Notes: a model not told the origin generated them from the sequence alone. DNA of 55,845 bases, filler included, from Asterionella formosa (GCA_002256025.1; 5 parts of 5 records of this genome joined end to end with filler, not necessarily neighbours in it); one strand, 5' to 3'. Shown: positions 1 through 33,040, counted from the first letter of the whole stretch. Program-made: numbers and translations.

Positions 1-538
1 CTTGAAAGTTCTTGTAGCACGCGTATGCGAGAAACTTCGCTTTCCACATGTGCCATTTAGCATCTTGCCCATCGAATGTCGGCAACCTCACTGACGTGTC
101 TTCGTCACTTCCCATCGTTCCTGAGTAGCCTGTGGCCTTAAAGTGAACGCTTTAAAGCGTGTTGAAAGGTCTCGTACTCCTTCCCGTCTGACGGGTTCCT
201 CTTATGTAGAACTTACCTGCTATACCACTAGTATTGTTATCTTCTTTCTGCTGCTAGCCTTCGTGCTAGTTTTCGCTATTGACCTTACTCTGTCAATTCT
301 CACTGTTTCTTAATTATAAGATTAAACTAAAACTAAGTTTCAATCCCATTCATCACACTTCGAGAACCTGTTCTTCGTGTTCCCTTTTCGTTGATGTAAA
401 CCTTCTTCTGATTGATCTAAGACATCAATCTCGTTAGCAAGCTTCTTGACATGGGAACGCACCATTTGACTCATTGGACTATAGTCGAGTCCACAGTCCT
501 TGTGACTCATTATAGCCATTGATGCTATATTCTTGACA
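1..538. mobile_element. LTR-like repeat, probably a solo LTR; left end uncertain or beyond the scaffold edge
   Basis: About 174-538 aligns by eye with about 26775-27153 (shared GGGAACGCACCATTTGACTCATTGGACT). Both copies stop at the same point, ...TATATTCTTGACA, a CA end typical of LTRs. Confidence 0.6.
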
Positions 539-701
539 CCAGGAGAGACCTATTCGTAGCTACCGGTTGGTGTTATTAGCAGTCCGTAAACGAATTAAAA
601 TCGTACGTTTCTCTTAACCAAAAAGCTAGTTATTAGAGCAATGACGACGAAATCAAGGCAATTCAAGAGACAGGGTGATGTGAATTAATACCTCAACTCC
701 A

Positions 702-2483
702 CTACTTTGTCCGAAACTGCGTAAAGAAGGAATCAATCTTCTTCCTTTTCTTTGGGCGTTGATCAAGAATTGCCAGAACGTTGTGCTCTCAGTCATACTG
801 TTGCTGTAGTTTCCTAGCCAACTCAAGATCTCTGTCAACGGGTTCCTCTGGCCCTGTTCTAGGGGCCATTTTAACTGATTCACCTTGTTTATCACAATCG
901 TATTGTTTCTGGAGTTTGAGAGCCAACTGCTCATCGCCATCAGCGTTGCTGCTTGAGTTGGATAATTCTGGAGAACCAAGGGAACCTGTGATAGGTATCG
1001 ATCTTGCTGTCATGACCGAAGCTTTCCCATCTGGGGAGTGGGTAGTCTTGAAAAAGGAAGAAATGCCGCCCACGAAAGATTGCATCTCGAAGTTCATGGC
1101 ACATAAGCCCACACGGTACAACCAAATATTTTCGCCTTCCTTGCTGACTATCTCGCTCTTCGTACGCTGTACCAATGAATCAATTCTTCGCGACGCGTTA
1201 TTATCTCTTGGAAATACAATGCGAAGGGATCTAGAAGTGCGTGTAATTGTTTCTTGGGAGTAGTTATAGTGAACCGTACATGACTTTGGAACTCGATGGT
1301 TACGGTGAGAATCCGTTTCCACTCGTCTCACAATGTCCGCCGCCAATAATCTCAACCAGGGATCGATACCATCCACCCTTGCTCGTGGAAAAGACTTGAA
1401 GGATGTTATACTCTTTACAAGTGCGTTTTGTGTCGACTTGACAGGTTCGGAATCCATTCCCCTCGCCGCATCAAAAACAAGTTGGGCGGAAGATGGTCCC
1501 AACTCCTGTACCAGCATTGGGAGAGACAGATGTTGCGACACTGATCCCATAGTCTCTTTTTCTCCTCCAGGCAACATGCGACAAACTATCTTTCCGATCT
1601 TTCCTCCAAGGTTACGGCATTTGGATATCATGGTGGCAGCCATGACAGCCGGAATTCGAGATGGCACGATCAAGGCTTGACCGTTGGGTTTGCCGTAGCT
1701 AGCACCGAGCTTGGCGGTCAGCTTACTGGTAGATATCCCTGCCGAAATAGTAAATCCAAGTTGATCGAATACCGCAGCTCTAATTTCGGATGCTACCCAG
1801 GCACCTCGATGGAGAGCTTGTACTACGCGCGGATCATCGTCTTGACTGCAATTGTTATCGTGGGCTACTAAGCAGGTTTGCCTCATGATGTGTCGAATTT
1901 TTTCGCTTTCTTCAACAGTCCTACTATACGAATCTTCCCAACAGTAGTCTGTGACATCAATGAATAGTTCGTCAATCGATGCTCGTTCGAGAATGAATTG
2001 TTGACTTAGGCGCTCCTCTAATGCTTGCAGCACAACCCCAAAAATCCGAGTCGACGCCAATCGGTAACGCTCTAAACAAGCCTTCCCTTCAGAGTTCTGC
2101 CGGCGGCGTCCAACTTCTCTTGTAAGAACACGCTGACGTTCTTCGTGGCTTAATTGGAACACTTGCTCGTACGCTGCTTCGACTGTGTCGTCAGTTGACG
2201 CCGCTCGTCCCTCTGCCTTCAGTTCGGTCAGGAGAGGCAAATGTATCGCCAGGCACTGTCCATTGCTCTTGGCTTGCACTTGATCCCAAGAGTCGCCCCT
2301 TTTGATGTCAAATAGCTCTCTCGCAGGGTAGGTCACGGCAAGAACCGAGTTCCATTGAAGTAGTGCCAAGGAAGTGGTGGCATTTTCCAACCCCAAACGG
2401 ACGCGTTCACATTGAGCGTAAAAACAATCAAGATCTAGGAGTAAAATGACTCGGCAGGGATGATCATAACACGGAGATGGCAT
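702..2483 (-). CDS. POLH: Y-family DNA polymerase eta, with an in-frame TGA at 789-791 before the C-terminal NLS/PIP tail
   Basis: Motifs LDLDCFYAQCE, LAVTYPAR..IKRG, LERYR.AS, ERASIDELFID, SAGIS..K..AKL...KPNGQ, LGGKIG. First ATG at 2483. The same frame continues past the TGA as EHNVLAILDQRPKKRKKIDSFFTQFRTK to TAG at 702-704. Confidence 0.88.
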
Positions 2484-2859
2484 GCTGGCTGATGACAATG
2501 CTCATACCGCAAGCAAACGAATTATTCACTCATTCGGAGTCATCGTTCGTAGCCAGAATTCCATCGTCACCTCTTCATAAAACAATGTTTTTTTAAACTA
2601 GAGTTACCGTAGATGATGTACCAGGTGTCCAGCTATACAGGTTTAGTTATTGAATACCGGTAATACCGATTGTACACGTATCTGTCACTGTACCGCCCAG
2701 GAAGGCCCAGTAATTAATGCACGTTATATTCGCACCTGCTTTTCAATTACGATTCATTCCCAATGATTCGTCCCATGCCTGCCAGATAAGATAGGCCGGC
2801 TTTCAATGAACATAATATTCCTTGAGTACTTTAGGAAAACAATCCTGATACTCGCAAAA

Positions 2860-3230
2860 GTACAAGTGCATACCTTGCTACTACTGGAGCACGCTCCATG
2901 GTGACTTGGTCATCCAAAGGATTGTAGAACATTCTAACTTCACAGAAGCTGAGTATGTCAGCCTCAGTGATGGTGTCAAGGAATACTACATTTGTTACAA
3001 ATTTATTGGATGAGGTCTATTTTATGGAACTGCCTGCAAATATTGCTGAGGATAAAACTGGACTGATTCTCATAAGCAAGAACCAATAAGTTATATGAAG
3101 GACAAAGCATATTGATTTCAGATATCATTTTATACATAAGAAGACTAAGGATGGGTATGTTTGTTGTGGTCTATGCACAGACATGCAAAAATAAAAGTGA
3201 CCTTCTTTCAAATATTGTAATACAGAAGGT
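2860..3230 (+). mobile_element. Degenerate Ty1/Copia RNase H remnant
   Basis: Translates, with stops and frameshifts, to TEAEYVSLSDGVKE and RTKHIDFRYHFI, the Copia RNase H signatures. Confidence 0.8.
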
Positions 3231-3236
3231 ATACAA

Positions 3237-3400
3237 GGGGAATGGCTTAGTGGTTAGTACACCTTTCTGCAGTGGCAGGTTTGATTCCTACATTCTCCAC
3301 CTGTATATTTCATGTAGTCCCTAGGGTTCCAGGGGGTGCGCTGACAAAAAGACAGGTCCTGTTGTACCGTACGGACAGATAAAACCGGTACTAATTGTGT
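3237..3400 (+). mobile_element. tRNA-Ala-derived SINE-like repeat, copy 1 (best-preserved head, 3' truncated)
   Basis: Acceptor stem GGGGAAT...ATTCTCC-A, A-box TGGCTTAGTGG (3243-3253), B-box-like GGTTTGATTCC (3278-3288). The following body is shared with the copies at 3550 and 5770. Confidence 0.7.
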
Positions 3401-3549
3401 CCATTTATTTGGGCCCGAGGAGTGCAATTATTGGATGTACTATAAAATTTAATTGACATTTTTTAACACAGAAGCTAAATGAATCTCATGCATATGACAT
3501 TTAATGCATCTGAAGAAAATAGGAGAGGATCATTATAATATCACTAATA

Positions 3550-3880
3550 GGGAGATTGATTAGAAAGTTAACACGTCTTCATAGTTGGTGGGTTCGATTC
3601 CTGATTCTCCACCTATCTTTCTTTTTCATGGTGTAGTAACTAGCTAGGGTTCTGGGGTTGCGGCTAATGAATGAACAAAGACAGGTTCCTGTTATACCAT
3701 ACAGACGATTCAAACCGATACAGATCCTCGCGCATCAGCGCCCGAAGTCACAACGTTTGTTGGGATGGCTGATCCTGGGTTGGCAAATAACTTCATATGT
3801 ACAAAAAATTCAGGGCTGGCAGCGCGAGGAAGCCCTAAGCGGTCTACACATCTAGCAAATGAGTAATCTTCAAGCGCTTA
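3550..3880 (+). mobile_element. tRNA-Ala-derived SINE-like repeat, copy 2
   Basis: Perfect B-box GGTTCGATTCC (3591-3601), then ATTCTCCACC and a body of about 270 nt alignable with about 5795-6061. Confidence 0.7.
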
Positions 3881-4356
3881 ATTTAAGTGAGGTTCATTTT
3901 TATAATGTCACTAAAATTGACAACGAAAATGGAAGTTGTCAATGGCGCATTTCTTCACGTAGCTAGCTTCTTGTGTTTAAGACATGGAAGGCACCACGAG
4001 CAGGTTGTTTTTTGAACAAGAAGCGGCACCACTGGTGCTGCAAATAAGTCTATGTACCTGCAAGGGCCTCAAAATTCAAGTAAACAAGAATATGAGTGGT
4101 CTAAGAAACTTGGCGCTATTGGTGTTTTTTCGCCACTATATTTCCCTTACAGTCAACATTGAAAACATATTTTAGATACTTTGTACTATGTTGGTTCCAA
4201 AGTGGCCCATTGCCCGTCAAAAGGAATTTTTAATATATTTCATAACATTCAGTTTTTGGATAACTGTACTTAATTCTGCGATTGCCGCATGTTATTCAAA
4301 TTAAAAATAGTGTTGACAGCAATTCCAATATATACATCCCTGCAATCTTCGAGCAT

Positions 4357-5460
4357 CATCTAAGCCGCGAAATAGGCCACTTTTTCGAAATTTTATCTTC
4401 GTAGGAGTGTTAATAATGTTACTTCACAACAATTACTGCCACTCATCCCGTAAATAAGGTTACTTTTAACGGTTTCATGTGAAGTTTTCACAATGAACAT
4501 TGAACTCGAGACTGAATTAGTTGATGTTTCTAATAATTCATTTCAAAGTTCAACAAAGATCCTGCTCTTGTAGCTAATACGACAAGCATCTTCATTTGTG
4601 AAATAGTAAGGATATTTGTGGTGTCTTATTTCATGAATGGAAAATCTACAGTTTATGGTTGTTCAATTTAAGTAAATCATGTGAGCTATCATAGTGAGCG
4701 AACCAGATGAGTTTTTGCCATGGTGTTCTGTTGAAAGCAGAAGTAATAGAAGGTGAAATGATGCTATATTTTTTCAGCAATGGAGGCTTTTAAGGAAAGC
4801 TTAATCTTCATGTTTTGTCATCACATCAGCAAAGAGATCGATAAATCACACGGTTCTGTTATAGTTCTCTACATTTTTTACATTTTAGCCGTCCATATCA
4901 CAGCAGAAGCATTCTTTTGTAAATATCAGTGATTTTGGTGCTGCTTGGCTATTGCCGGTGTATTCCTGTCAATGCGACTGCTCCATAAAACAGTTGAATA
5001 CTAGCAAATGTGTGCGTTGCTTTCTGCTGTGGTTGCTAGTGCTATTAAATGAATTACTAAACAATGTTGTTATGTCAATCTTTGCAGGTTTTCAAGGACA
5101 AGAAGGAATCCAGTGTGATGCTTTCCTGTTGCAATTTCGTACCATGATGCCTGTTCAAGAGTGAATAATTTTCCATTCAGAATGAACGCACGGCTTCTGT
5201 TCATCTTGCATTTTCCTTACAGACTTCTCATAATGCCTGCTGCCTTGTTCTCAAGACTGAAGATTCCTTTCTGAAAGAACAGCTTTGTTTGCTTGCATAT
5301 CGAGATTTTTTTCCATTAATGTGAAATAGTTGAATTGGTCAGCGACATTATTTGATAGTACTTTGAAAATTAGTTGGAAAAACTTAAGGAAATGAGTTGA
5401 ATGACCTTCAGAAAATTACGTAAACAAAATTATTGAATTACGTGAACAAAATAATACATA
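4357..5460. mobile_element. Truncated copy of the CATCTAAGCCGCG-TIR DNA transposon family
   Basis: Starts with CATCTAAGCCGCGAAATA. 4357-4660 is the reverse complement of about 32720-33040, and about 4780-5450 is the reverse complement of about 30400-31115. Confidence 0.8.
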
Positions 5461-5769
5461 ACGTCGTCAGATATGATCAGTAATTTAATTTAACTCTAAT
5501 TCTGTTGCATGTTTTGTACGGGTCCTACACTATCTCAAATCAGATCTCGAAGCTGCTTTTATTGCCTATTTGTTGGTTTTATCCGATGCTCTATAATATT
5601 AGTGTTTCATCGTTTTCTAATCAAAATATTGAAGTTGTTACATTTATATGATTACCTATCGTGACAACGAAAGATCAACAATCCTGATGAAAATATGCTA
5701 ATACCAGGTGGTCTGAATCGTTATCTCGTATTTTGGGTTTGGTTCGCGTGTTGCTTTCAAAGGTGCTGG

Positions 5770-6061
5770 CGTGTATAATTCCTGCATTCTCCACCTGCTT
5801 TTGTTCTTTTTCATGCAGTCCCTAGGGTCCCAGGCGGGGTGAGGCTAATGAATTAAAAAGAAAGGTTCCCATGATCCTGTATGGACGAATAAAACCGGTA
5901 CTGATCCCCGCGCACCGCCAGCGCCTGAAGTCACAACGTTGTTTGGGATGATCCTGGATTGGTAAGTAAGTACTTAAGTACATGGACATCAGGGCTGGCA
6001 GCACAAGAAAGAGCTATGCGGTCTACTCTTTCTGGAAAATAAGGAGTCTTAAAAAGCGCTT
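5770..6061 (+). mobile_element. tRNA-Ala-derived SINE-like repeat, copy 3 (head degraded)
   Basis: ATTCCTGCATTCTCCACC followed by the shared body CTAGGGT...GGCTAATGAAT...AAACCG...GAAGTCACAACGTT...CAGGGCTGGCAGC...GCGGTCTAC. Confidence 0.7.
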
Positions 6062-6565
6062 GCCCTTGATAAAAGTGAATTGAAATCTTAAGCACGTATT
6101 TTACAAGCAAGCGAGGACAGCAGGAAGGTGCTTATTGATTGTTGTTGTCATTTTCAAGTTGTTTACCTTGTTCCCACCACCATGGTCGATCATACTAATT
6201 ATACTGCGCCGCCTATTAACATTATCCTATTGCCGAAAATTTTTTTTTCATGTCCTTCCTTTTGAATTTTGGAGTGATGATGAGGCTTTCAATGACACTG
6301 ATTCTGGACCCAACTCTTTTTCAACTGAAAAATATATACCATGCCACCATGATCCTCTCCTTCCTGCCAGATAGCACCAGCACAAATGACTACTATCAAG
6401 CTGTTTCTCCTCCACATCTGCTGCCACCACAATTCAAAGTCGTTGCAGCACCCACTCCCTGCGAATCAATTGATTTATCAGTTCCTGCTCCTCCAACCAG
6501 GCCGGATTTGAACTTTTGTGACATTTCATTTTGACGACAACAAAAGAGTGTAAGCTACAGTACTA

Positions 6566-8317
6566 CCGTAAACTTCATTGTCCTGCCCCCCCCCCTGAGG
6601 TTGCGCCCCCTAATAAAACACGTCACTTGGTTAAGGAGTTTTTATCAATAGTCGAATTTTTCGTATTTTTCCCCACTGCATCGACCAAATCTTCATGTGA
6701 CGATGAAGTAAAGGGCAGCAATAGCGAGCCATTGAATGGCGACTGCTTCTACCGCTTCTGTAAAATGCGGCAAGAAAACGAGAAGGTAAAGTCGGCTTAT
6801 GTAGTTTTTAAAATATTAGCATCCTCGCCTTCCCTTTAAGGGTCCTTATTCTTACGAAGCTAGTACTACGCCTATCTGATGCTACCCATCAAAAACTACT
6901 ATGACTATGCATTTGTATATTAGTATTCTAGAATTGGACAAACTCTCTTCCGTTTTCCTATTTTGGTTTAAGCTAGGGGAATAGCTAGCTTAATAATTGC
7001 TCGTAATAGTAGCGTTAACATTTTACTAATTTTATCATTTGCCTGCTTTTCAGAATCATATACTACATCAAAATGATCAGTGCTTGTGAATGACAGGTCG
7101 TGCATCGATCGAGTACTCCACTGTGGCATTATGTCCATGAGCGGCAGCAGCAATAGTCAACGCATTGAAGCCGGTCTTGGAGAATGCATTGGCGCACTAC
7201 TTATTTGTGCGTTGCTTCTTCTATTTGAACATTTTGGCTTCCTTGCTGCAACTTTTGTAAGTCCCATGATGCCAGCTTCCATGATCAATGCAGTTATACC
7301 ATCCTTGTCAGCTGCATTCTTGAAATTTGCCCTCTACTTTTGCCAAAGCTTGAACATTTCCAAGAATCCGGAAGAGGCAGATGGAACGAAGGCATTCAGT
7401 TCATCCCAGTCTATTATAATGACACTATTACTTCTTCGAGAAGAGCTTGAATCGCTTTCTTGCCTCTGTCACTTGCAGTTCCAATAAATCTGGCAGCGGG
7501 CGACGATGTGGCAGTAGCTAATATCCCAAGCCGATGCAAACTAACTTTTCGTCACTGTTACATGGTGCCGACTTGACTTCTTCTTTGCCGACTCGGATCA
7601 ACAAATATGACAATCAGCTGCAATCAACAAGATGTAACCATGTTTGCTAACGCCCAAAATATTCCAGTCTTTGGCAACATAGTGTGACAACTTGGGAACA
7701 ACAGTTGGCAAAGTCTCGTTCTTGTCGCAATCCTTGGACAACGTCTTAATCAAGAAGAAGCAACCTAGCGACCATTTCTGTCAAGAGAAGGTCAACTGTC
7801 AAGGACCTGAAGGACTGCGCTACACCCATGGATTGTAGTAAGGCAAGAAATCTTATTTAATGTGATGATTGTATATTATAAAGCTGCTGGCATCAGCCAT
7901 TCAAAGTTAGTTCATTTTTTGTCTACATTACTGACAAGGAGTACGGTATATGTATTGAAATTATGTAATTATGTATGCACTCATTAAACCATAAACATTA
8001 GGTTGCCGGTGCAACCCACAATCTAAACCAATAGAAATGCTCCTTTTATTTGGCTATGGTTGGAGTCTAATCAACCAAATACCTGATATTTGCTTGATAA
8101 GGGGGGTCGTCTTTGACCAAGACTAAAGCATATTTGGTCTTGGTTGATGCAGTGGCTAAAATATTTTTGCTTTTTTTGACCAACACAACAATGCATCATG
8201 ACCACATGTAATGACCTGCTGCTTCAATTGGCTTGGTATTTGGTTGATGCAGTGGCGATGCTCTAATTCAGTCTTGGCAGCAGTGTACATTGGGGGGGAG
8301 GACAATGAAGTTTATGG
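6566..8317. mobile_element. Non-autonomous Tc1/mariner (pogo-like) TIR element
   Basis: TA|CCGTAAACTTCATTGTCCT(G)CCCCCCC ... GGGGGGGAGGACAATGAAGTTTATGG|TA, giving a TIR of about 26 bp and a TA target duplication. Confidence 0.75.
6672..8263. mobile_element. Nested PIF/Harbinger-like element, left terminus clipped
   Basis: Right end TTGGTTGATGCAGTGGCGATGCTC|TAA. Its inverted partner CCACTGCATCGACCAAAT lies at about 6673-6690. Confidence 0.5.
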
Positions 8318-8429
8318 TATGTGCAATTTTTATTGATATCATTTTATGTGACAATCATTCTCATTTGTTCGATGCTTGTTTTACCATCATCAATGCAAAA
8401 TATGTATGTATTTCAAATGTTCTGATTAC

Positions 8430-8704
8430 TGTCATGCTAAAAAACTGCAATTTGCTTTAATGCATGCTGCCGAAAATTCGATGTGGCTCATATTGCCCCT
8501 AATTGAGAATGACTGAACAACTTACTTAAAGCCTAAATATTACTTAGATTTATCCGAAAAGCAAGCAGACGATACAGCTGGAGCGGAAATCCCTATAATT
8601 ATTTGCATATGCACGCACTTAACAAATTACCTATAGACTAAATATTACATTGATGTGACGGATGAAAAGCAATCAGACGATACAGCTGGAGCGGGAATCA
8701 CTAA
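8430..8704 (+). mobile_element. Helitron-like 3' terminal region with a duplicated terminus
   Basis: 8430-8590 aligns with about 21200-21345. AGACGATACAGCTGGAGCGG(A/G)AATC occurs twice, and the second copy ends CTAA|T (CTRR|T). Confidence 0.45.
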
Positions 8705-9160
8705 TATTTTTTACACATTTACGGACCAGCAACTGCGAGGGCTGATGCACACTTTTGCTACTTAAAACCACTGTAAGTAGCGGTAGAAGACGGTTTTTTA
8801 CTAGAGGCAGAATGAAGCTAAACTTCTCCAATACTATACTACTTGCCGCAAACTTGATGATACCGGTAGTACTGGTATTTGTTTGCTTTCCAAGCATCTG
8901 CTTGGAGTCAAGCACCGGCACTCAGTACCGGTTTCAAATTATACACTGTCACTACACGAAGTTCGACGGTCCGTTGTTGGTCATGGCTACAGGTAACCAA
9001 CAAGGCAACTGAAAAGGAGAATGCTAGGGATTCACATGCGTCCATCACAATCACTACATACGGTAAATCATTTTAAGAATTTGATAAAAACAACAAAAGT
9101 ACTTTTTCCCCTTGAGCATTCTCCTCCTTTCAATCTAAACTACTAGGGGTCGACAACAAA

Positions 9161-10072
9161 ATGCTGCGTAATTCGTTCGTAGACGATCGTCATGATCTTA
9201 TTAGAGATCATCACGTAACGGATGAGAACACTTCCGACCTCTTTCATGTAAACTATAAGAACACCTCCGACCACGTTGATCGCCAACTTCTCCATCCTAA
9301 ATTAATTCAACAGGACGAAGCCAAAAAGAGTGCGTTTATCGGCTGGGCTATGCTGCCCCGCCTCTTTGAGATTTGGGACTTCGATGGCAGCGGGTACATT
9401 GACCGTAATGAACTTCTTTTCGGTGTCAACGAATATTGCACCTTAACGAACATCACTTACGACAAAGAAGTAATTTTCGCCACAATGGACCAAGTCGATG
9501 CAAACCACGATCATCAATTAGACTTTCACGAGTTCTCTCTCTTTCTGCACAGATTTGTTAAACTCGTTGATGCTCACTTGGATGATCTAACTTACTTTAT
9601 GTTGGAAATTCTAGATGCAAGGCGATTCGCTAGAAAATTTCCTTGCAAACCGGCAGTAACGAACAATTATTTCTCGCTTGTACAAAAACTTCAAAAAGCG
9701 TTCAGAATTTCAAAAAGTAATGCTGAGGCCAGTTCATTAACAGCTGAAATTTCGACCGATGATAGAAGTCTTGTCCTTGCCGACATCCCGATGTTAGAAG
9801 ACTTTCAACCTGTGCGTTTAACTAATTTCTTGTGTAACTTTTTGAAAATGTTGTGATATATTGCAATTGACCGTCTTATGCATCATCGACTCACTTTATT
9901 TATGCTTCTTATATAGAAAATTCGAGAAAAACGATTAAGAAAACTCAAGATGATCATCAAGATGAAGATGCCTGTGAAAGCGGAAGTATCACCACAATGT
10001 GCGGTTGAATTATTTGCAGAGCCCGAGAGATTTCACGTCATGGATAATGATTCTGTTTTCCCCTTACTCTAG
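9161..10072 (+). CDS. EF-hand calcium-binding protein; exons 9161-9811 and 9917-10072
   Basis: Two EF loops, DFDGSGYIDRNE and DANHDHQLDFHE. A predicted GT..AG intron at 9812-9916 extends the frame to TAG at 10070-10072. Confidence 0.75.
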
Positions 10073-10846
10073 AAAAAGTTTAACCGAACCTTTTGCATTC
10101 TTTCTGTTGTTTGCAACTTTGCCGCTTCATGTTTTCTAAAGCTATTCAAAGATTCACAAATTATCACGGAGACTGCCGAGAAAATGCAACACTTTCAATA
10201 TTCTCCCTGCCTCGAACTTCTACCTTTCATGCATTGCATTTTGGGACTAGAGTACTAGTAGTACAACGAAGCTCATGCATGCCCGTCCTTGGATATTCAT
10301 GGCTTCGTCGTATGTGGGTCGCTCAAGGCAATGTTAAAGAAAGGATGAACAAGTAGGACTTCTGCGCGGACCTTTCTCGTTTGGGATAGTTGTTGATTAG
10401 ATGATGTCGAACGCTTCGTGGAACTTATTTAATAGTTATTCGCAACCCTAGCTGGATCACAAATGCTGTCTTAAAAATGAGACATTATCGGCAATCGATA
10501 TGTGTCGATAAAAAACAACATCAACTGACTGTGCGCACAAGAATTAAGTATTTCGTCACTTTTCAAGAAATTTGGATCCGACCAACGATAAACTGAAAAC
10601 GGTATTTTTGTAGTCTGGAATCTGTTTTTGCGTGTTTTCTTGTAAAATGCTGATCCTGTCTAAGATCGCCGAACAAAACGCTTGCCCGACAGATCCGCAT
10701 ATTTTCTAAAACAAGTGCACAACGCTGGAGTTAAAAGGATTTTACAATCACAACGACAACAGAAAAAAAAGTACTCTGTTTCAAGTCAGGCCAGATAGAT
10801 TATATGTTGCTATACTCATATCCTGTGATCGCTCATTATAGCATTC

Positions 10847-11123
10847 CTAGATGCTATCCAAAATATCATTAAGAGTTTTCGATGGATTCATGGCTGCGTG
10901 AGCCTTGTCAGCGTCAAACAAATAGTATCCGCCGAGGTCAACCGCCTCGCCTTGGCAAGCCTTGAATTCCTCAACTATAGCAGCTCGGCCTTCGCTGAGC
11001 TTTGAAAAGATTGGCTGAAAAGTTGCATCTTGTTGAGCCAAGGCTTCGGCCCAATATAAAGCAATGTAAAAGTTTGTTGCTCGATTGTCAATTTGATTCA
11101 CGACACGCGACGGGGACTTTCTG
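10847..11123 (-). CDS. icd: Monomeric-type NADP-dependent isocitrate dehydrogenase, C-terminal fragment cut by the scaffold end
   Basis: RKSPSRVVNQIDNRATNFYIALYWAEALA...VDLGGYY...AMNPS matches the C-terminus of monomeric IDH. Confidence 0.88.
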
Positions 11124-11223: not shown

Positions 11224-12433
11224 CGTTTATTTCCCCGTTCTGAATGATTGGACCATTAATAGCAGCAGCATCATGATCTACTAAACTATCAAGGAATAAA
11301 CCATTATCATAGTCATCGGCATCAAAACAAACTGTTTGAACGAAATCAATGGCTGCTGGCGATTGTTTCAGGAATTTTGCAAGGGGGTCTTGAGAGTGGT
11401 GTCGTCCATCTCTTCGAGAAGTCGCTACCAGCCATTGATGATGTCTGCGATGCTTGAATGTGAGATTGAATCATATCTTGTTGCCCACACGAGGGGCTGT
11501 GTATGTGATGACCACGAATTGATTTAAAAGGACCTTTACCACAGAATTTACATTTGTCCTCGTCGTTATTGTCACACAGATCCATGATATTTACTGTCAT
11601 TGTAGTGCTGTGTTGGCGAGAGAAAAATAAGAATAACCGGTAGCTAAAATAATGGACCTTGTTTGGCACATATTTGGCAAACAATACTACCTGGTACCAT
11701 CCTCATCAGTAGACATCATTCCACCAGTGTTGATTTTGAGTAATAATAATCACGTAAAAAAATTGGGTTGCCTACCACTGGCTAGTAGTACATTTACCTA
11801 GTACCGGTAATAACCTACATAACATGAAAACTGGGAAGAGGGAGCTTTTTTACCGGTAAGTGTGAGTTCTTCATGTGATGTGTACAACCGTAAATTTTTT
11901 CATGTGATGTGTACAACCGTAAAACTTTGATCTCAGATGGATGACATTAGACACCACAAATAACCTTACTATTTCATTAAGTAAAATGCGTGTTGCGAAT
12001 GTATTAGCCTCAAGAGCAGGATCTTAGTTGAACTTTCAAATGAATTATTTGAAACATCAACTAATTCAGTCTCGCGTTCAGAATTCATTGTGAAAACTTC
12101 ACATGAAACAGTTAAAAATTCACATGAAACCGTTAAAAGTAACCTTCTTACGTGAAGAGTGGCATTAATGCATGTGAAGTACCACATAATTAACACTCGT
12201 ACGTAGACGAAATTTCGAAAAGTCAAATGAATTATTTGAAACATCAACTATTTCAATCTCGCGTTCAAAATTCATTGTGAAAACTTCACATGAAGCAGTT
12301 AAAACTTCACATGAAACCGTTAAAAGTAATCTTTTTTACATGAAGAGTGGCATTAATGCATGTGAAGTACCACATAATTAACACTCATACAAAGACGAAA
12401 TTTCGAAAAGTGGCGTATTTCGCGGCTTAGATG
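11224..12433 (-). mobile_element. End of a CATCTAAGCCGCG-TIR element carrying the start of a putative transposase ORF
   Basis: Ends ...TTTCGCGGCTTAGATG at 12433. 11945-12433 is homologous to about 32740-33040 and has an internal tandem duplication. A minus-strand ORF from about 11600 has a Zn-finger-like CKFC...GHHIHSPSC. Confidence 0.7.
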
Positions 12434-12486
12434 CTGACCAACCAACCAAGTCAACATACTTTCATCTTTGAACAGTTTGGCCTCAA

Positions 12487-19494: not shown

Positions 19495-21350
19495 ACTTGC
19501 CATCATCGCGCCATTTGCTTACCTACGTCCCTCTCATTGAGTGTAAATGTCAATTTTAGCTCGCTACGAAATTTGCCAAAGGTCCGAAATTGCCCATCAT
19601 TAAAATATATTTTGTTTATTTCCTATGTTCGCATTTTGACAAAACAATTTGTACCAATTGCCCCTCTGTTTTTGAGCCCTGGGATAGCCGAAATTGGCAA
19701 GGGGTTTAATTAAGGAAACCATTATCTAGAATTCACCTCGTTTTTGTTTGTCGCCAGACAACTGGACTCCGGCAATTCACCTTTTACCATGCCAATCGTC
19801 TTCCATCACGACTGATGTGAAGCGAAATCAGTTCAGTGATGACGCCAGCAGCAATTCATTGTCTAACAGATGCGGTTGGTTGTTGGATTGCTTGTCTTCT
19901 CAAGGAAATCATGTAGTTGCATCGTCCATATTTCGCCGGACAAACAATGATATCGATACATCTGATGTCGGCGGCAAGTTTTTGCTCCAGTCATGCATCT
20001 GATGATGCTGGATACGGTACTCAACCAGTAGTCAACTAGCCTACATACGTACGTGGTACTAAAAACAACCATGCATGGTTTAAGCTATGCTTTAACGCTT
20101 ACTTTGAACACATTATAATATTATCTCTGTAGACTCGGTATTATTTTTACGAGACCTGAAATGTTAAATTATGTTGTTCACATATTCATTGATTTTACAT
20201 ACCATATGCACGATTTCGTCCTCACAAATATAGTTCTCTCTCTATCTTGCCTGCCTTTGCTCTATTCGGGCTTGCAATAGGCAACGTTCGTCTTTCTTTT
20301 ATCCCATCGTCTGCTGCTTGTTATGCTAGTTGAAGCGGATCGGTGAGTACAACAGTGAAATACTGAATGTGGATTGTAGATTGTATTTATCGACTTTCCG
20401 ATTTGATTGCTTCCGTGGTTTGTTTTGATCGCTTCTATCGTTGTTTGTCGTTACGCACTGTAGTTTTGTTTCGATTGTACATATCTACATAAGAACCAAT
20501 GCATTTATCAATGACTACTCATTGAAGATGTGGTATTGTGCCGTTGTTGATCGTATTTGTTGATTTGCATAGTCGTTGACAATGATGTCAATATTGCCAC
20601 CAAGCAATGCTTTTCTTGTACTAAAGCGCTTTGCAACATTTCTACTACGAGTTCGTATCAGAAGCTACATGAATACTCAGCTAGAGAGAGTCAATAGTGC
20701 TGGAGCAGCGTGGCGATCACGCTTGCTCAGAATGGAATGATCAGGGTTGCTTGTTTGGTGGGTGGAGGCATGATGACTGTGGAGGAAATACTTCTACTGG
20801 TGTCAGGCTACTACAGCGATGTGCATGGTTGCAGCAACCAGAAAATTTACGCTACATAACGATGCAGTTCTAAATTGGGTTCAGCTTTTTTTCTTCTTCT
20901 TTTAGTCTATGATTGTGTGGTGCTGATGGAAAGTCAATTGTGCCTGGCTGTGTAACAACTACTACTACAATGATTCACAATGCATATGTCTCCATTGACA
21001 TTTCTATTTTTTACTTCATTTTCTAACCCAAAACAATTTTTTCTATTTCTCATTTGATGCTACTTATTACATCACATTTCATACTTTGGTTGCTCCAAAC
21101 ATCATGTTCAATTTTCATTGATATTGCATGTTGTTTCAATCATTCTCGTGTGTTTTACGCTTGTTGTACCATCTCTATGCATATTACCTTCATTCTGGTT
21201 GTCATGCTAAAATCGGCAATTTTATTGCCGAAAAATTCGATGTGCCCCATATTTCTCCTAAATAAAGTATTTTTAGAAATTACTTAGAGCGTAAAAATTA
21301 TTTAGAAGTACCCGAATGGCAAGACGAGAGCTGGAGCGGGAATTGCCGGA
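19495..21350 (+). mobile_element. Putative non-autonomous Helitron/Helentron-like element
   Basis: 3' end is shared with 17474-17520 and 8430-8704. CTTGCCAT near 19496 is inverted to ATGGCAAG near 21316, a possible sub-TIR. Left boundary tentative. Confidence 0.4.
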
Positions 21351-30146: not shown

Positions 30147-33040
30147 CATCTAAGCCGCGCATTACGTGAAGTGACCATCATGTAAAAAAGCCTAGTAGAT
30201 TTTGAATGGATCACATGAATTAATTGAACACATCAAAATGATAACTTGAATATATCTAGATATTACTATCTGAATACATCACATTAATTATTTGATCAGA
30301 GTATCACACATGCATTCCTGATCATCACTATATTACGTGATCACCTTCACGTAATTATTTGAAATACTTCAATTAATTCTGTAATTTAGTTCACATTGCC
30401 TTATAATTTTGTTCACGTAATTCTATAATATAGTTCACGTAATGTATTAAATTTGTTTACGTAATTTGAAAGTACTATCACATAATGTTGATTCCTAATT
30501 CAACTAGTACCGGTATTTCACATTACATAGGAAAAAATCTGGATATGCAATCAAAAAAAGCTGTTCCATCAGAATGGAATCTCCAGTCTTGAGAAGGCAT
30601 GCTTTATGAGGCACCTGTAAGGACAATGCAAGACGAAGAGAAGCCATTCATTCAGAAGGGAAAAATTATTCACTCTTGAACAGGCATCATTGTACGAAGT
30701 TGCAACATGAATACATCACACACTGGCTTCCTTCTTGTTGTCCTTGAAATATTTCTTCATTGACCTGCAAAGATTTACAAAACAACAGTGTGTCAGTAAT
30801 TCATATGATAGAACTAGCAACAGCAGAAAGCAACACACACATGTAGTAGTATTCAGCTGTTCCTCAGGGCAGTCGAATTGAAACAACAAACCGGCAACAA
30901 CCAGGCAGCACCACAACTCACTGATGCGTTCAAAAGAATGCTCCTGGGCAGCACCACAACTCACTGATGCGTTCAAAAGAATGCTCCTGTTGTGAAATGG
31001 ACGGATAAAATGTAAAATAAATGTAGACAACAATAACAGAGCCATGTGATTTATCGCTCGCTTTGCTGATACAATGACAAAAACTGAAGATTGAGCTTAC
31101 CTTAAAGGCCTCCATAGCGGGTCTCCATTTCTATCATTTCACCCTCTATCACTCATGCTTTCCAAAGAACTCTCCTTTTCTGAAAAGGCCTGTTCAAATG
31201 TCAAATGAATTTTGTAAAGAACAGCATATCAGTATAGTTATCCTTTGCTTGGTGATATGATAGCAAAAATAATAAGCAAATAAATCTTACCTTAAAAGCA
31301 TCGATTGCTTACGATCTCAATGTTGCATCATTCCACCTTCTGTTGTTGCAACAAACAATATGTGAGTTCTTGGCTGATGTAGGATTTGTTAATGGTGAGG
31401 CACTGAAAAGCTAGAAGGGGATGCTGGTTTTAAGGGTCGCCCCATGTTGAAAACTTATTGTGCACAGTGGTGGTTAAATGTTGTCTTTATGAATTCAGAG
31501 GAGGTCAAAAATCCTGGCGCAGCCATGACTTCCTCTTTCTACCAACAGAACCTACAATCTACACGAAAAAACCTGGTGCAGTCTTACTTCGTCGGGACAA
31601 ATTCTGATGCTACAAGTGTGACCTAAAACAAATATGACAAGAAGGAGAGGACACAGCCAATGGTTACTCTTAATAGATTCACAGTACAAACGCCATATTC
31701 TATTGTAATAAGGGAAAACGGGAATGCCGGTAGGGCAAAGCAACCTACAGTTCCACAACACGCACGTAGAAATGAGAACAATTTCACAGTACGAGCGGCA
31801 TAATTCCTATGGTAACAAGAAGGGGAAGACGGAAATACTGGTAGGGCAAACCTACAGTCTCACACTTGTAACGACGACCTGGTTCCTACCAGCCAGGAGT
31901 ACCTGGTGGTACCATACAGTATAGCTATTTGTTAGTATGTCTGAGTGCAGGGTCAAAAGACCCAAGGTACCTGGTAGCCCTGGTACCTGGCACTGGTAGT
32001 ATGTATCATAGCCCTGTGTAGGCCTTCTAAACTGGTACCTGGTCCCAGGTACCTTGTACCATACCTATTCATTAGCTGAGGTCAACAGACTCAGCATCAC
32101 GATGCTATTCCAGACATATTCACAATACAGGTATGTTGTTCATATACTTTTTCTATCTTTAGAATTCATAAGAAATATAGTTTATGTAAAAGAATAAGAG
32201 AATTCATATTGGATGCTGACAATATCGATGATAAGGATGATTGTTGATATACTTCATGCACCCAGTTGCCGACAACCACATTGCTTCAATTTTCTCCATC
32301 AATTCATGCCTGATAGCACTCCCAAAATTTGCATTCGATAACACACACTGATTGGAATGGATATTTAGTTTAGTATTTTAAACTCAATATTAAATGATTC
32401 GTTCCATAACTGTTTTGTGCTCATTAGGGCTGGTTGTTGCTTGTTGCATCACGTATCATGTCGCGATATTTCTCGAGATCCATTGCGCTCCGTTTTTCTC
32501 AATCAATCAAGGGCAGATTTCAATCAAACAATTAGTAGTGAAGTTGTCTTTCGCAATGATATATCCTCTAACAATTTTATCTTAAACATTTAAAATATTT
32601 AGTTGTAACATCAACTAGTCCTGCCTCGGAAATAACCATATGATTGTGAACCATGACGTGAAACCACGACAAGTAATCTTGTTCAGTATAAGAGTAAATA
32701 TTATTTACGTGAAGTGCACAACCATAAACTGTAGCATGAATTAAGACACCACAAATATCCTTACTATTTCACAAAGGAAGATGCATGTCGTAAATGAATT
32801 AGCCTCAAGAGCAGGACTTAGTTGAACTTTGAAATGAATTATTTGAAACATCAACTAATTTAGTCTCGAGTTCAAAGTTTTTTGTGAAATCTTAACATGA
32901 AACCGTTAAAACTTCACATGAATCCGTTAAAAGTAAGCTTTTCTACGGGAAGAGTAGCATTAATTCATGTGAAGTACCACATAATTAACACTCCTACATA
33001 GAGCAAATTTCGAAAAGTGGCTTATTTCGCGGCTTAGATG
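30147..33040. mobile_element. Complete non-autonomous DNA transposon (2894 bp) with 13-bp TIR CATCTAAGCCGCG and 2-bp TSD GA
   Basis: GA|CATCTAAGCCGCG ... CGCGGCTTAGATG|GA. Subterminal TTCACGTAAT/ATTACGTGA repeats at 30160-30470. Homologous copies in two other scaffolds. Confidence 0.85.

What the first reader, a model, noticed from the sequence alone, without database searches (positions are those of the whole stretch)
3237..6061. tRNA-Ala-derived SINE-like family, three copies, in a probable diatom
Seen: three diverged copies (3237, 3550, about 5770) share a tRNA-like head and a body of about 270 nt. The head has acceptor stem GGGGAAT/ATTCTCC with a G3.U70 pair and A73, an A-box, and a consensus T-arm GCAGG-TTCGATT-CCTGC; the anticodon arm is collapsed. 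Established: G3.U70 is the alanine identity element, and GGGGAAT...GCATTCTCCA matches eukaryotic tRNA-Ala. A Pol III tRNA head plus an unrelated body is SINE architecture. Inference: this is a retroposon family, and to my knowledge SINEs are scarcely described in diatoms. Caveats: no TSD or simple-repeat tail is visible, and a T5 run follows the head in two copies.
Basis: partly seen in the sequence, partly recalled or inferred. Interest (0 to 1): 0.72.

Follow-up and report, generated by a model that had tools for sequence, protein, structure and literature searches.

The report
Two tRNA-headed SINEs in a diatom
The three repeats are copies of two related short jumping elements (SINEs) that start with a shrunken alanine-tRNA copy and end like a resident LINE retrotransposon, a familiar design in animals and plants that has hardly been described in diatoms.

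Summary
Real and dispersed, but two families, not one. Copies at 3550 and ~5735 belong to family A (341 nt); the copy at 3237 is a complete member of family B (236 nt). They share a head derived from the host tRNA-Ala(AGC) gene and a ~100-nt core, then diverge. Both families end in oligo-T; 5'-truncated copies occur. Rough copy numbers: B ~260, A ~60 or more. Both tails align end-to-end with the 3' terminus of a decayed RT-RNase H LINE group in the same genome (z 5.0 and 5.5; core control -0.2) and keep its 6-bp stem through two-sided changes, at only ~65-70% identity. Duplications tend to start T-R and end Y-A, suggesting two nicks with one preference. Pol III transcription is untested, and a conserved T5 just after the head needs read-through. 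The host is a diatom. The scan noted these families and the LINE lead before on other pieces of this genome; I took that lead from there and tested it. A new member of a known kind.

The parts
3237..3463 (+). Copy 1: full-length SINE of family B (consensus 236 nt), 86% to consensus, with a 9-nt deletion in the tail
3237..3299 (+). tRNA-Ala(AGC)-derived head of copy 1; A-box-like 3243-3253, B box 3278-3288 (one change)
3300..3391 (+). Core shared by families A and B (long hairpin plus small hairpin in the folded consensus); origin unknown
3392..3463 (+). Family-B tail, LINE-like; stem arms 3421-3426 and 3436-3441; ends in a T run
3218..3236 (+). Left TSD of copy 1 (14 of 19 with 3464-3482)
3464..3482 (+). 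Right TSD of copy 1
3550..3901 (+). Copy 2: full-length SINE of family A (consensus 341 nt), 84% to consensus; B box 3591-3601, internal T5 3622-3626, LINE-like 3' region from about 3825
3533..3547 (+). Left TSD of copy 2 (14 of 15 with 3900-3914)
3900..3914 (+). Right TSD of copy 2, overlapping the terminal T run
5735..6089 (+). Copy 3: family A, 80% to consensus over 5752-6089; head and B box decayed; internal T5 5807-5811; start approximate
5716..5734 (+). Tentative left TSD of copy 3 (15 of 19 with 6084-6102)
6084..6102 (+). Tentative right TSD of copy 3

Best explanation
Two tRNA-Ala-derived SINE families with a common head and core and different LINE-derived tails, copied by target-primed reverse transcription with the enzymes of a now-decayed RT-RNase H LINE group of the same diatom. 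Shown: architecture, tRNA source, dispersal, TSDs, 5' truncation, subfamilies of different age, tail similarity to the LINE end. Inferred: RNA polymerase III starts at the head from internal A and B boxes, reads through the T5 behind the head in part of the transcripts and stops at the terminal T run; the LINE protein binds the stem-loop of the tail, nicks the bottom strand after Y-A, primes on the oligo-U end through one or more A-U pairs, and nicks the top strand 13-21 bp away, again preferably after Y-A, which leaves the TSD.
For: Head: 53 identities in 60 aligned positions (A) and 47 in 62 (B) to the host tRNA-Ala(AGC) gene, L055. Sharp ends, unrelated flanks. TSD score above the 99th percentile of cross-paired flanks in 64 of 78 non-redundant full-length copies, 50 of 56 B and 14 of 22 A; lengths 13-21 in the 21 of 22 B copies. 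10 of 27 loci found by the B 3' end begin past consensus position 20. Subfamily distances from own consensus 3-15%. LINE group: 102 RNase H matches, 167 candidates for its 3' end, RT, RNase H and 3' end in order on six contigs. End-to-end alignment of SINE tails with 24 LINE ends: A z 5.0, B z 5.5, 0 of 500 shuffles each; core z -0.2. The enclosing 6-bp stem has pair 3 C-G in LINE and A but U-A in B, and pair 6 A-U in LINE and most B, U-A in A, G-C in 5 B copies. Target: T before the first non-T base in 25 of 29, A as last TSD base in 21 of 34, C in 0 of 34, pyrimidine before it in 26 of 34. Internal T4/T5 followed by C is described in mollusc SINEs as favouring read-through (PMC4758252, passage).
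Against: No Pol III transcript shown. A box imperfect and only 23 nt from the B box (32 in the tRNA gene). A T run of 4 or more lies behind the head in 67 of 78 copies, and host tRNA genes end at T4-T6, so full-length transcription needs read-through. Tail identity to the best LINE ends is only 51 of 73 (A) and 45 of 63 (B) aligned positions with 14 and 19 gap positions; single pairs are often not significant (L328 z 1.5 and 1.0; z of 3.8 or more in 11 of 24 ends for A and 4 of 24 for B); the LINE-end HMM reported only 10 of 23 A copies. The stem counts use patterns that partly select conforming arms (20 of 24 LINE ends, 10 A, 31 B counted). No TSD could be shown for 6 LINE copies, so the two target signatures were not compared. 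The RT of the LINE group rests on a homologue (P0296) that Pfam and PDB do not recognise and a custom RT profile scores at E 2e-6 (best of 50 shuffles 0.008). No endonuclease domain was located.
Confidence: 0.72

Rival explanations
1. SINEs as above, but moved by another non-LTR element (an RTE-clade LINE now lost or unassembled, or the young poly(A) APE-RT LINE); the likeness to the RNase H LINE end is old ancestry or AT-rich convergence.
For: T-ended tails and TSDs starting with T are the plant Au/RTE pattern (PMC6007223, results part 1; PMC13295347, results). RTE-like elements are reported in two model diatoms (PMC2806351, passage). Tail identity to the RNase H LINE is modest.
Against: No RTE found: RVT_1 gave 150 matches, those examined being Gypsy-like, telomerase and one APE-RT family; PF14529 0 of 42 candidates. 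The RTE T run near position -10 is absent (T 0.14-0.34 at -8 to -5; highest 0.45 at -8). The young LINE ends in poly(A), lies in tandem and shares no sequence with either tail.
Confidence: 0.14
2. A SINE-shaped retroposon whose full-length template is not a Pol III product: it is cut out of longer Pol II transcripts, the mini-cloverleaf giving the exact 5' end through RNase P, while Pol III stops at the internal T5.
For: T5 sits where a tRNA terminator would. The head of the young subfamilies folds as a four-arm cloverleaf. The 5' end is exact.
Against: The B box is conserved in all subfamilies. The 3' end lies at a T run, as a Pol III stop would give. Read-through of C-followed T runs has precedent. 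No direct evidence for processing.
Confidence: 0.09
3. Solo LTRs of a tRNA-containing TRIM (Helenus type), a MITE or a Helitron end.
For: Copy 1 lies at the end of a Copia-like RNase H remnant (motifs recalled). tRNA-containing LTRs exist (PMC10886601, abstract and section 4.1).
Against: TSDs are 13-21 bp and variable, not 4-5 bp; no TG..CA ends or terminal inverted repeats in either consensus; flanks unrelated; copies lose the 5' end and keep the 3' end.
Confidence: 0.03
4. Retroposed tRNA-Ala pseudogenes with 3' flank.
For: Head ends in discriminator A plus CC; a T5 follows.
Against: All copies share indels absent from the tRNA gene and a 170-280 nt body unlike the gene's flank; 0 of 30 head-bearing loci end at the T5.
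Confidence: 0.02

Closest known systems
tRNA-derived SINEs as defined in SINEBase (PMC3531059, Definitions section read)
   Same: Under 700 bp, interspersed, tRNA head, body of unknown origin, LINE-like 3' region, simple tail, subfamilies. By that definition A and B are separate families, since their LINE-derived regions differ.
   Different: [quoted passage not shown] The head is only 62-63 nt. Pol III transcription not shown here.
Plant Au-like SINEs and Sauria SINEs with RTE/Bov-B partners (PMC6007223, PMC13295347; results read)
   Same: T-ended tail, TSD starting with T (often T-A), a 3' hairpin shared with the partner and kept by compensatory changes.
   Different: No T run about 10 nt upstream of the nick; a Y-A preference also at the far end of the TSD; the candidate partner carries RNase H and is not RTE-like.
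SINE superfamilies with a shared core and exchanged tails, e.g. mollusc Vhc and Snail SINEs (PMC4758252, passages)
   Same: Same head and core with different 3' parts; internal T4/T5 followed by C.
   Different: Core seen only in this genome and in 4 metagenome contigs (3 with core); homology to known central domains untested.
Putative SINEs of Phaeodactylum tricornutum, Cyclotella cryptica, Skeletonema costatum and Pleurosigma (PMC5859163, PMC7466962, PMC8147415, PMC12803021; passages)
   Same: SINE class reported in diatoms.
   Different: In the passages read they are repeat-table classes (P. tricornutum: 13 'putative SINE', 1,454 bp) with no source tRNA, TSD or partner given; supplements not read.
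Ambal clade of diatom LINEs (domain order APE-RT-RNase H recalled, not read; the label LINE/Ambal seen in PMC12803021)
   Same: The candidate partner is a diatom non-LTR element with a divergent RT followed by RNase H and a Cys-rich motif; a relative is annotated in Fragilaria crotonensis.
   Different: No Ambal reference could be compared, so the name is a lead only.

Membership tests
tRNA-derived SINE (SINEBase) | Short (<1 kb), interspersed, non-tandem repeat | tested here: met
   341 and 236 nt, unrelated flanks
tRNA-derived SINE (SINEBase) | At least 100 copies | tested here: met
   For B and for both together: 96 exact head 22-mers, 93 exact B-tail 14-mers, exact head word in only 12 of 35 B copies found otherwise, giving about 260. 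For A alone inconclusive: 41 matches, about 60 by recapture (11 of 16 sites were). The assembly holds some allelic duplicates.
tRNA-derived SINE (SINEBase) | At least 60% identity to a tRNA over at least 60 nt | tested here: met
   A 53 of 76 columns (70%), B 47 of 73 (64%), gaps counted, against host tRNA-Ala(AGC); Rfam tRNA 26.6 bits, E 0.0012, below the cut-off of 29
tRNA-derived SINE (SINEBase) | Distinct from tRNA pseudogenes (body, shared diagnostic changes) | tested here: met
tRNA-derived SINE (SINEBase) | Transcribed by RNA polymerase III from the internal promoter | not testable with these tools
   Only contigs of RNA runs were available; they hold SINE-like pieces but show no start, end or strand
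Non-LTR retroposon (TPRT product) | Variable-length TSDs, 5' truncation, simple 3' tail | tested here: met
   64 of 78 with TSD; 10 of 27 truncated at 5'; T run 2-8
Stringent SINE-LINE pair | 3' end shared with a resident LINE, with a conserved stem-loop | tested here: met
   z 5.0 and 5.5, 0 of 500 shuffles; stem pairs; identity only about 70% of aligned positions
Stringent SINE-LINE pair | Same insertion signature in SINE and LINE | tested here: inconclusive
   No convincing TSD in 6 LINE copies
RTE-related SINE (Au/Sauria type) | T run about 10 nt upstream of a T(A) nick, and an RTE partner | tested here: not met
   T at the nick yes (25 of 29), upstream T run no; no RTE found
Helenus-type TRIM | Two LTRs, PBS and PPT, 4-5 bp TSD | tested here: not met
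Deu/Nin/Meta/CORE/V superfamilies | Homology of the central domain | not testable with these tools
   No SINEBase or Dfam library; supplements of PMC3531059 not readable
Ambal clade (partner LINE) | RT phylogeny with Ambal references; APE-RT-RNase H order | tested here: inconclusive
   RT-like then RNase H then 3' end in order; APE not located; no reference sequences; definition recalled

The most novel reading that the evidence does not exclude
The element has two products. Pol III mostly stops at the conserved T5, giving a short RNA that is trimmed to a 62-nt four-arm mini-tRNA which keeps G3.U70 and A73 and can be charged by alanyl-tRNA synthetase (which reads the acceptor stem, not the anticodon; recalled). 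Read-through gives the retroposition template, recognised by a diatom-specific RNase H LINE that nicks both strands after Y-A. This would be a SINE whose master genes were selected to keep a chargeable tRNA mimic, and a first SINE partner for this LINE clade. The head of subfamilies B1 and B3 folds that way as its minimum-energy structure, and the short stem is kept while its loop differs between subfamilies; B2 and B4 heads fold otherwise.
Probability: 0.1. Interest if true: 0.75.

Novelty: new member of a known kind. Interest (0 to 1): 0.5.

Why it matters
In the papers read, diatom SINEs appear only as software-assigned repeat classes, and SINEs were thought absent from most unicellular eukaryotes. 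Here the source tRNA gene, both ends, TSDs, subfamilies, a tail exchange and a probable partner LINE are all defined in one diatom. If the partner is of the Ambal clade, the SINE copies give a first look at that clade's target preference, which the decayed LINE copies do not show well. Hundreds of insertions of different ages could serve as presence/absence markers between strains. The design itself is textbook.

Tried and rejected
ARAGORN found 0 tRNA genes in the window. Rfam on four A loci gave nothing above chance; no ribozyme seen. The whole A consensus is not more structured than shuffles (z -0.6; head z -2.1). Partner searches that missed: RVT_1, Exo_endo_phos, PF14529, PF20049 (no control rang, uninformative), exact B-tail word (29 matches; the 27 new loci were all SINE or truncated SINE). 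The young APE-RT LINE was examined and rejected; a 13-of-15 antisense likeness to the A tail was judged chance. My first reading of copy 1 as a 3'-truncated A copy was wrong. My first guess of an RTE partner was not supported. Homologue search of the RNase H piece against longer proteins found none; Pfam scans of the piece alone gave none, although the genome search scored it at 28.8 bits, above the cut-off. No RNA holder was listed; contigs of three RNA runs hold SINE-like pieces mostly under 95% alike, one bin at high depth in X2, which cannot show Pol III transcription. LINE TSD search gave chance-level scores. The Copia-like remnant was not named by the Atlas or the plasmid set. Literature searches for a characterised diatom SINE or SINE-Ambal pair listed none; the library lacks most subscription papers and Repbase Reports. 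Longer LINE stretches could not be fetched, so RT-to-end order rests on coordinates.

Full report
Setting. Window places 1-11123 are one contig (C8824) of a 68-Mb assembly in 15,436 contigs. The gene beside the repeats (789-2501, minus strand) is DNA polymerase eta, and all named top relatives are diatom proteins, so the host is a diatom.

Observation. The three repeats are real. A search with copy 2 gave 41 matches from 40 scored of 176 candidates. Thirty loci align over 341 nt with sharp ends and unrelated flanks; I call this family A. Copies 2 (3550-3901) and 3 (5752-6089, start probably near 5735) are 84% and 80% identical to its consensus. Copy 1 matches only positions 1-165. The sequence after it recurs at other loci, and a search with it gave 394 candidates that define a second family, B, of 236 nt. 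Copy 1 is a full-length B copy, 3237-3463. Of the first 30 of 96 exact matches to a head word, 28 were B and 2 were A. Rough copy numbers are about 260 for B and about 60 or more for A (11 of the 16 sites were among the matches; my count); the assembly includes some allelic duplicates. A metagenome scan found 4 contigs with B-type heads, 3 of them with the core.

Head. Among 36 distinct tRNA sequences from 29 loci of this genome, the head matches tRNA-Ala(AGC) best (77.5 against 53): 53 of 60 aligned positions for A and 47 of 62 for B. It is about 10 nt shorter than the gene. The B box is intact; the A box is imperfect and 23 nt from the B box instead of 32. G3.U70 and A73 are kept, and B has A-U where the gene has G.U at pair 5. 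In subfamilies B1 and B3 the minimum-energy fold is a four-arm cloverleaf without variable loop; B2 and B4 fold differently. Groups differ from their own consensus by about 12-15% (A), 11.5% (B2), 10% (B4), 5% (B1) and 3% (B3, 3 copies), which points to successive source copies.

Insertion marks. With cross-paired flanks as control, 64 of 78 non-redundant full-length copies score above the 99th percentile (50 of 56 B, 14 of 22 A); lengths were 13-21 bp in the B set. In the window, copy 2 has 14 of 15, copy 1 has 14 of 19, and copy 3 a tentative 15 of 19. Both families end in a T run (2-8 in B). Ten of 27 loci picked by the B 3' end lack the 5' part, several with TSDs by eye. Among 46 stringent TSD calls, the target had T before the first non-T base in 25 of the 29 that directly follow the tail (background 0.30), and in the 34 with an exact right end the last base was A in 21 and C in 0, with a pyrimidine before it in 26. 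Read on both strands this is a nick after Y-A at each end (inference). The T run about 10 nt upstream that marks RTE partners (PMC6007223 and PMC13295347, results sections) is not seen.

Partner. My own searches first found only a young, GC-rich, poly(A)-ended APE-RT LINE in tandem arrays, which shares nothing with either tail. Earlier notes of this scan on other pieces of the genome pointed to an RNase H LINE. I tested this. An RNase H search found one decayed copy; it has 102 matches genome-wide and 167 candidates for its 3' end. With a long homologue (P0296) as query, RT-like region, RNase H and 3' end lie in order on six contigs, most matches with stop codons. Pfam and PDB do not recognise this RT, which explains the earlier miss; a profile of LINE RTs does, weakly (E 2e-6). 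Twenty-four LINE ends were aligned. Both SINE tails align to them end to end (A z 5.0, B z 5.5, 0 of 500 shuffles; core z -0.2), with 51 of 73 and 45 of 63 aligned positions identical in the best pairs and many gaps. Single pairs vary: z of 3.8 or more in 11 of 24 for A and 4 of 24 for B. A 6-bp stem near the LINE end is kept in both SINEs, with two-sided changes at pairs 3 and 6 (the patterns used partly select conforming arms, so only the differences between families count). No TSD could be shown for 6 LINE copies. The partner is therefore probable at the level of the LINE group; the exact subfamily is not found. The name Ambal for such elements is recalled and untested.

Transcription. A run of 4 or more T lies just behind the head in 67 of 78 copies (T5 in 51), and nuclear tRNA genes here are followed by T4-T6. 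None of 30 head-bearing loci ends there, so templates ran through it. The run is followed by C, a context reported to favour read-through and seen in mollusc SINEs (PMC4758252, passage). No RNA holder was listed, and contigs of three RNA runs cannot show start, end or strand. Pol III transcription is inferred only.

Comparison and novelty. The elements meet the three SINEBase criteria (PMC3531059, Definitions read), family A alone being uncertain on copy number, and fail those of Helenus-type TRIMs (PMC10886601, abstract and section 4.1). SINEs are reported from four diatoms, in the passages read only as repeat classes; their supplements were not read and may hold more. Seven searches listed no characterised diatom SINE or partner, in a library that lacks Repbase Reports and most subscription papers. 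This scan has noted the same families several times on other pieces of this genome; those notes are not independent support.

Verdict. A real pair of tRNA-Ala SINE families with exchanged LINE-like tails and a probable RNase H LINE partner: a new member of a known kind, interest 0.5.

Noticed in passing
L008 (C15127 about 20170-20545), L009, L249, L016, L004, L289: Another repeat with a tRNA-like T arm and an end resembling the same LINE terminus; in L008 it splits a family-A copy and duplicates consensus 306-321 (16 bp). Probably a third SINE family using the same partner (by eye).
   Followed up: no
L060-L073, L094, L301-L303: Young, GC-rich (about 56%) single-ORF APE-RT LINE of 1475 aa, near-identical copies in head-to-tail arrays with poly(A) and a B-box-like hairpin in the 3' UTR; named relatives in brown algae and a chytrid. 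A few telomere-like repeats lie between units in L303. Could be subtelomeric or from a co-cultured organism.
   Followed up: partly
window 2880-3236 and 3480-3535: Decayed Copia-like RNase H end and a purine tract; copies 1 and 2 sit inside this relic (motifs recalled, not named).
   Followed up: partly
window 789-2501 (-): Intact DNA polymerase eta ORF, ending about 700 bp from copy 1.
   Followed up: yes
L119 (C10287), 1058-aa ORF: Telomerase reverse transcriptase-like ORF among the RVT_1 matches (by eye).
   Followed up: no
window 4357-5433, 11882-12436, 30403-33040: Another dispersed repeat with 21-bp subrepeats, several copies in the window.
   Followed up: no
window 6564-6591 and 8292-8319: 28-nt inverted repeat 1.7 kb apart, also seen next to a truncated B copy in L245; possibly a DNA-transposon end.
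   Followed up: no
L246/L247 (C3686): B copy with its last 71 nt duplicated in tandem, as from re-priming during reverse transcription.
   Followed up: no
window beyond 11123: The window joins several contigs with N spacers; only 1-11123 is contiguous with the finding.
   Followed up: yes
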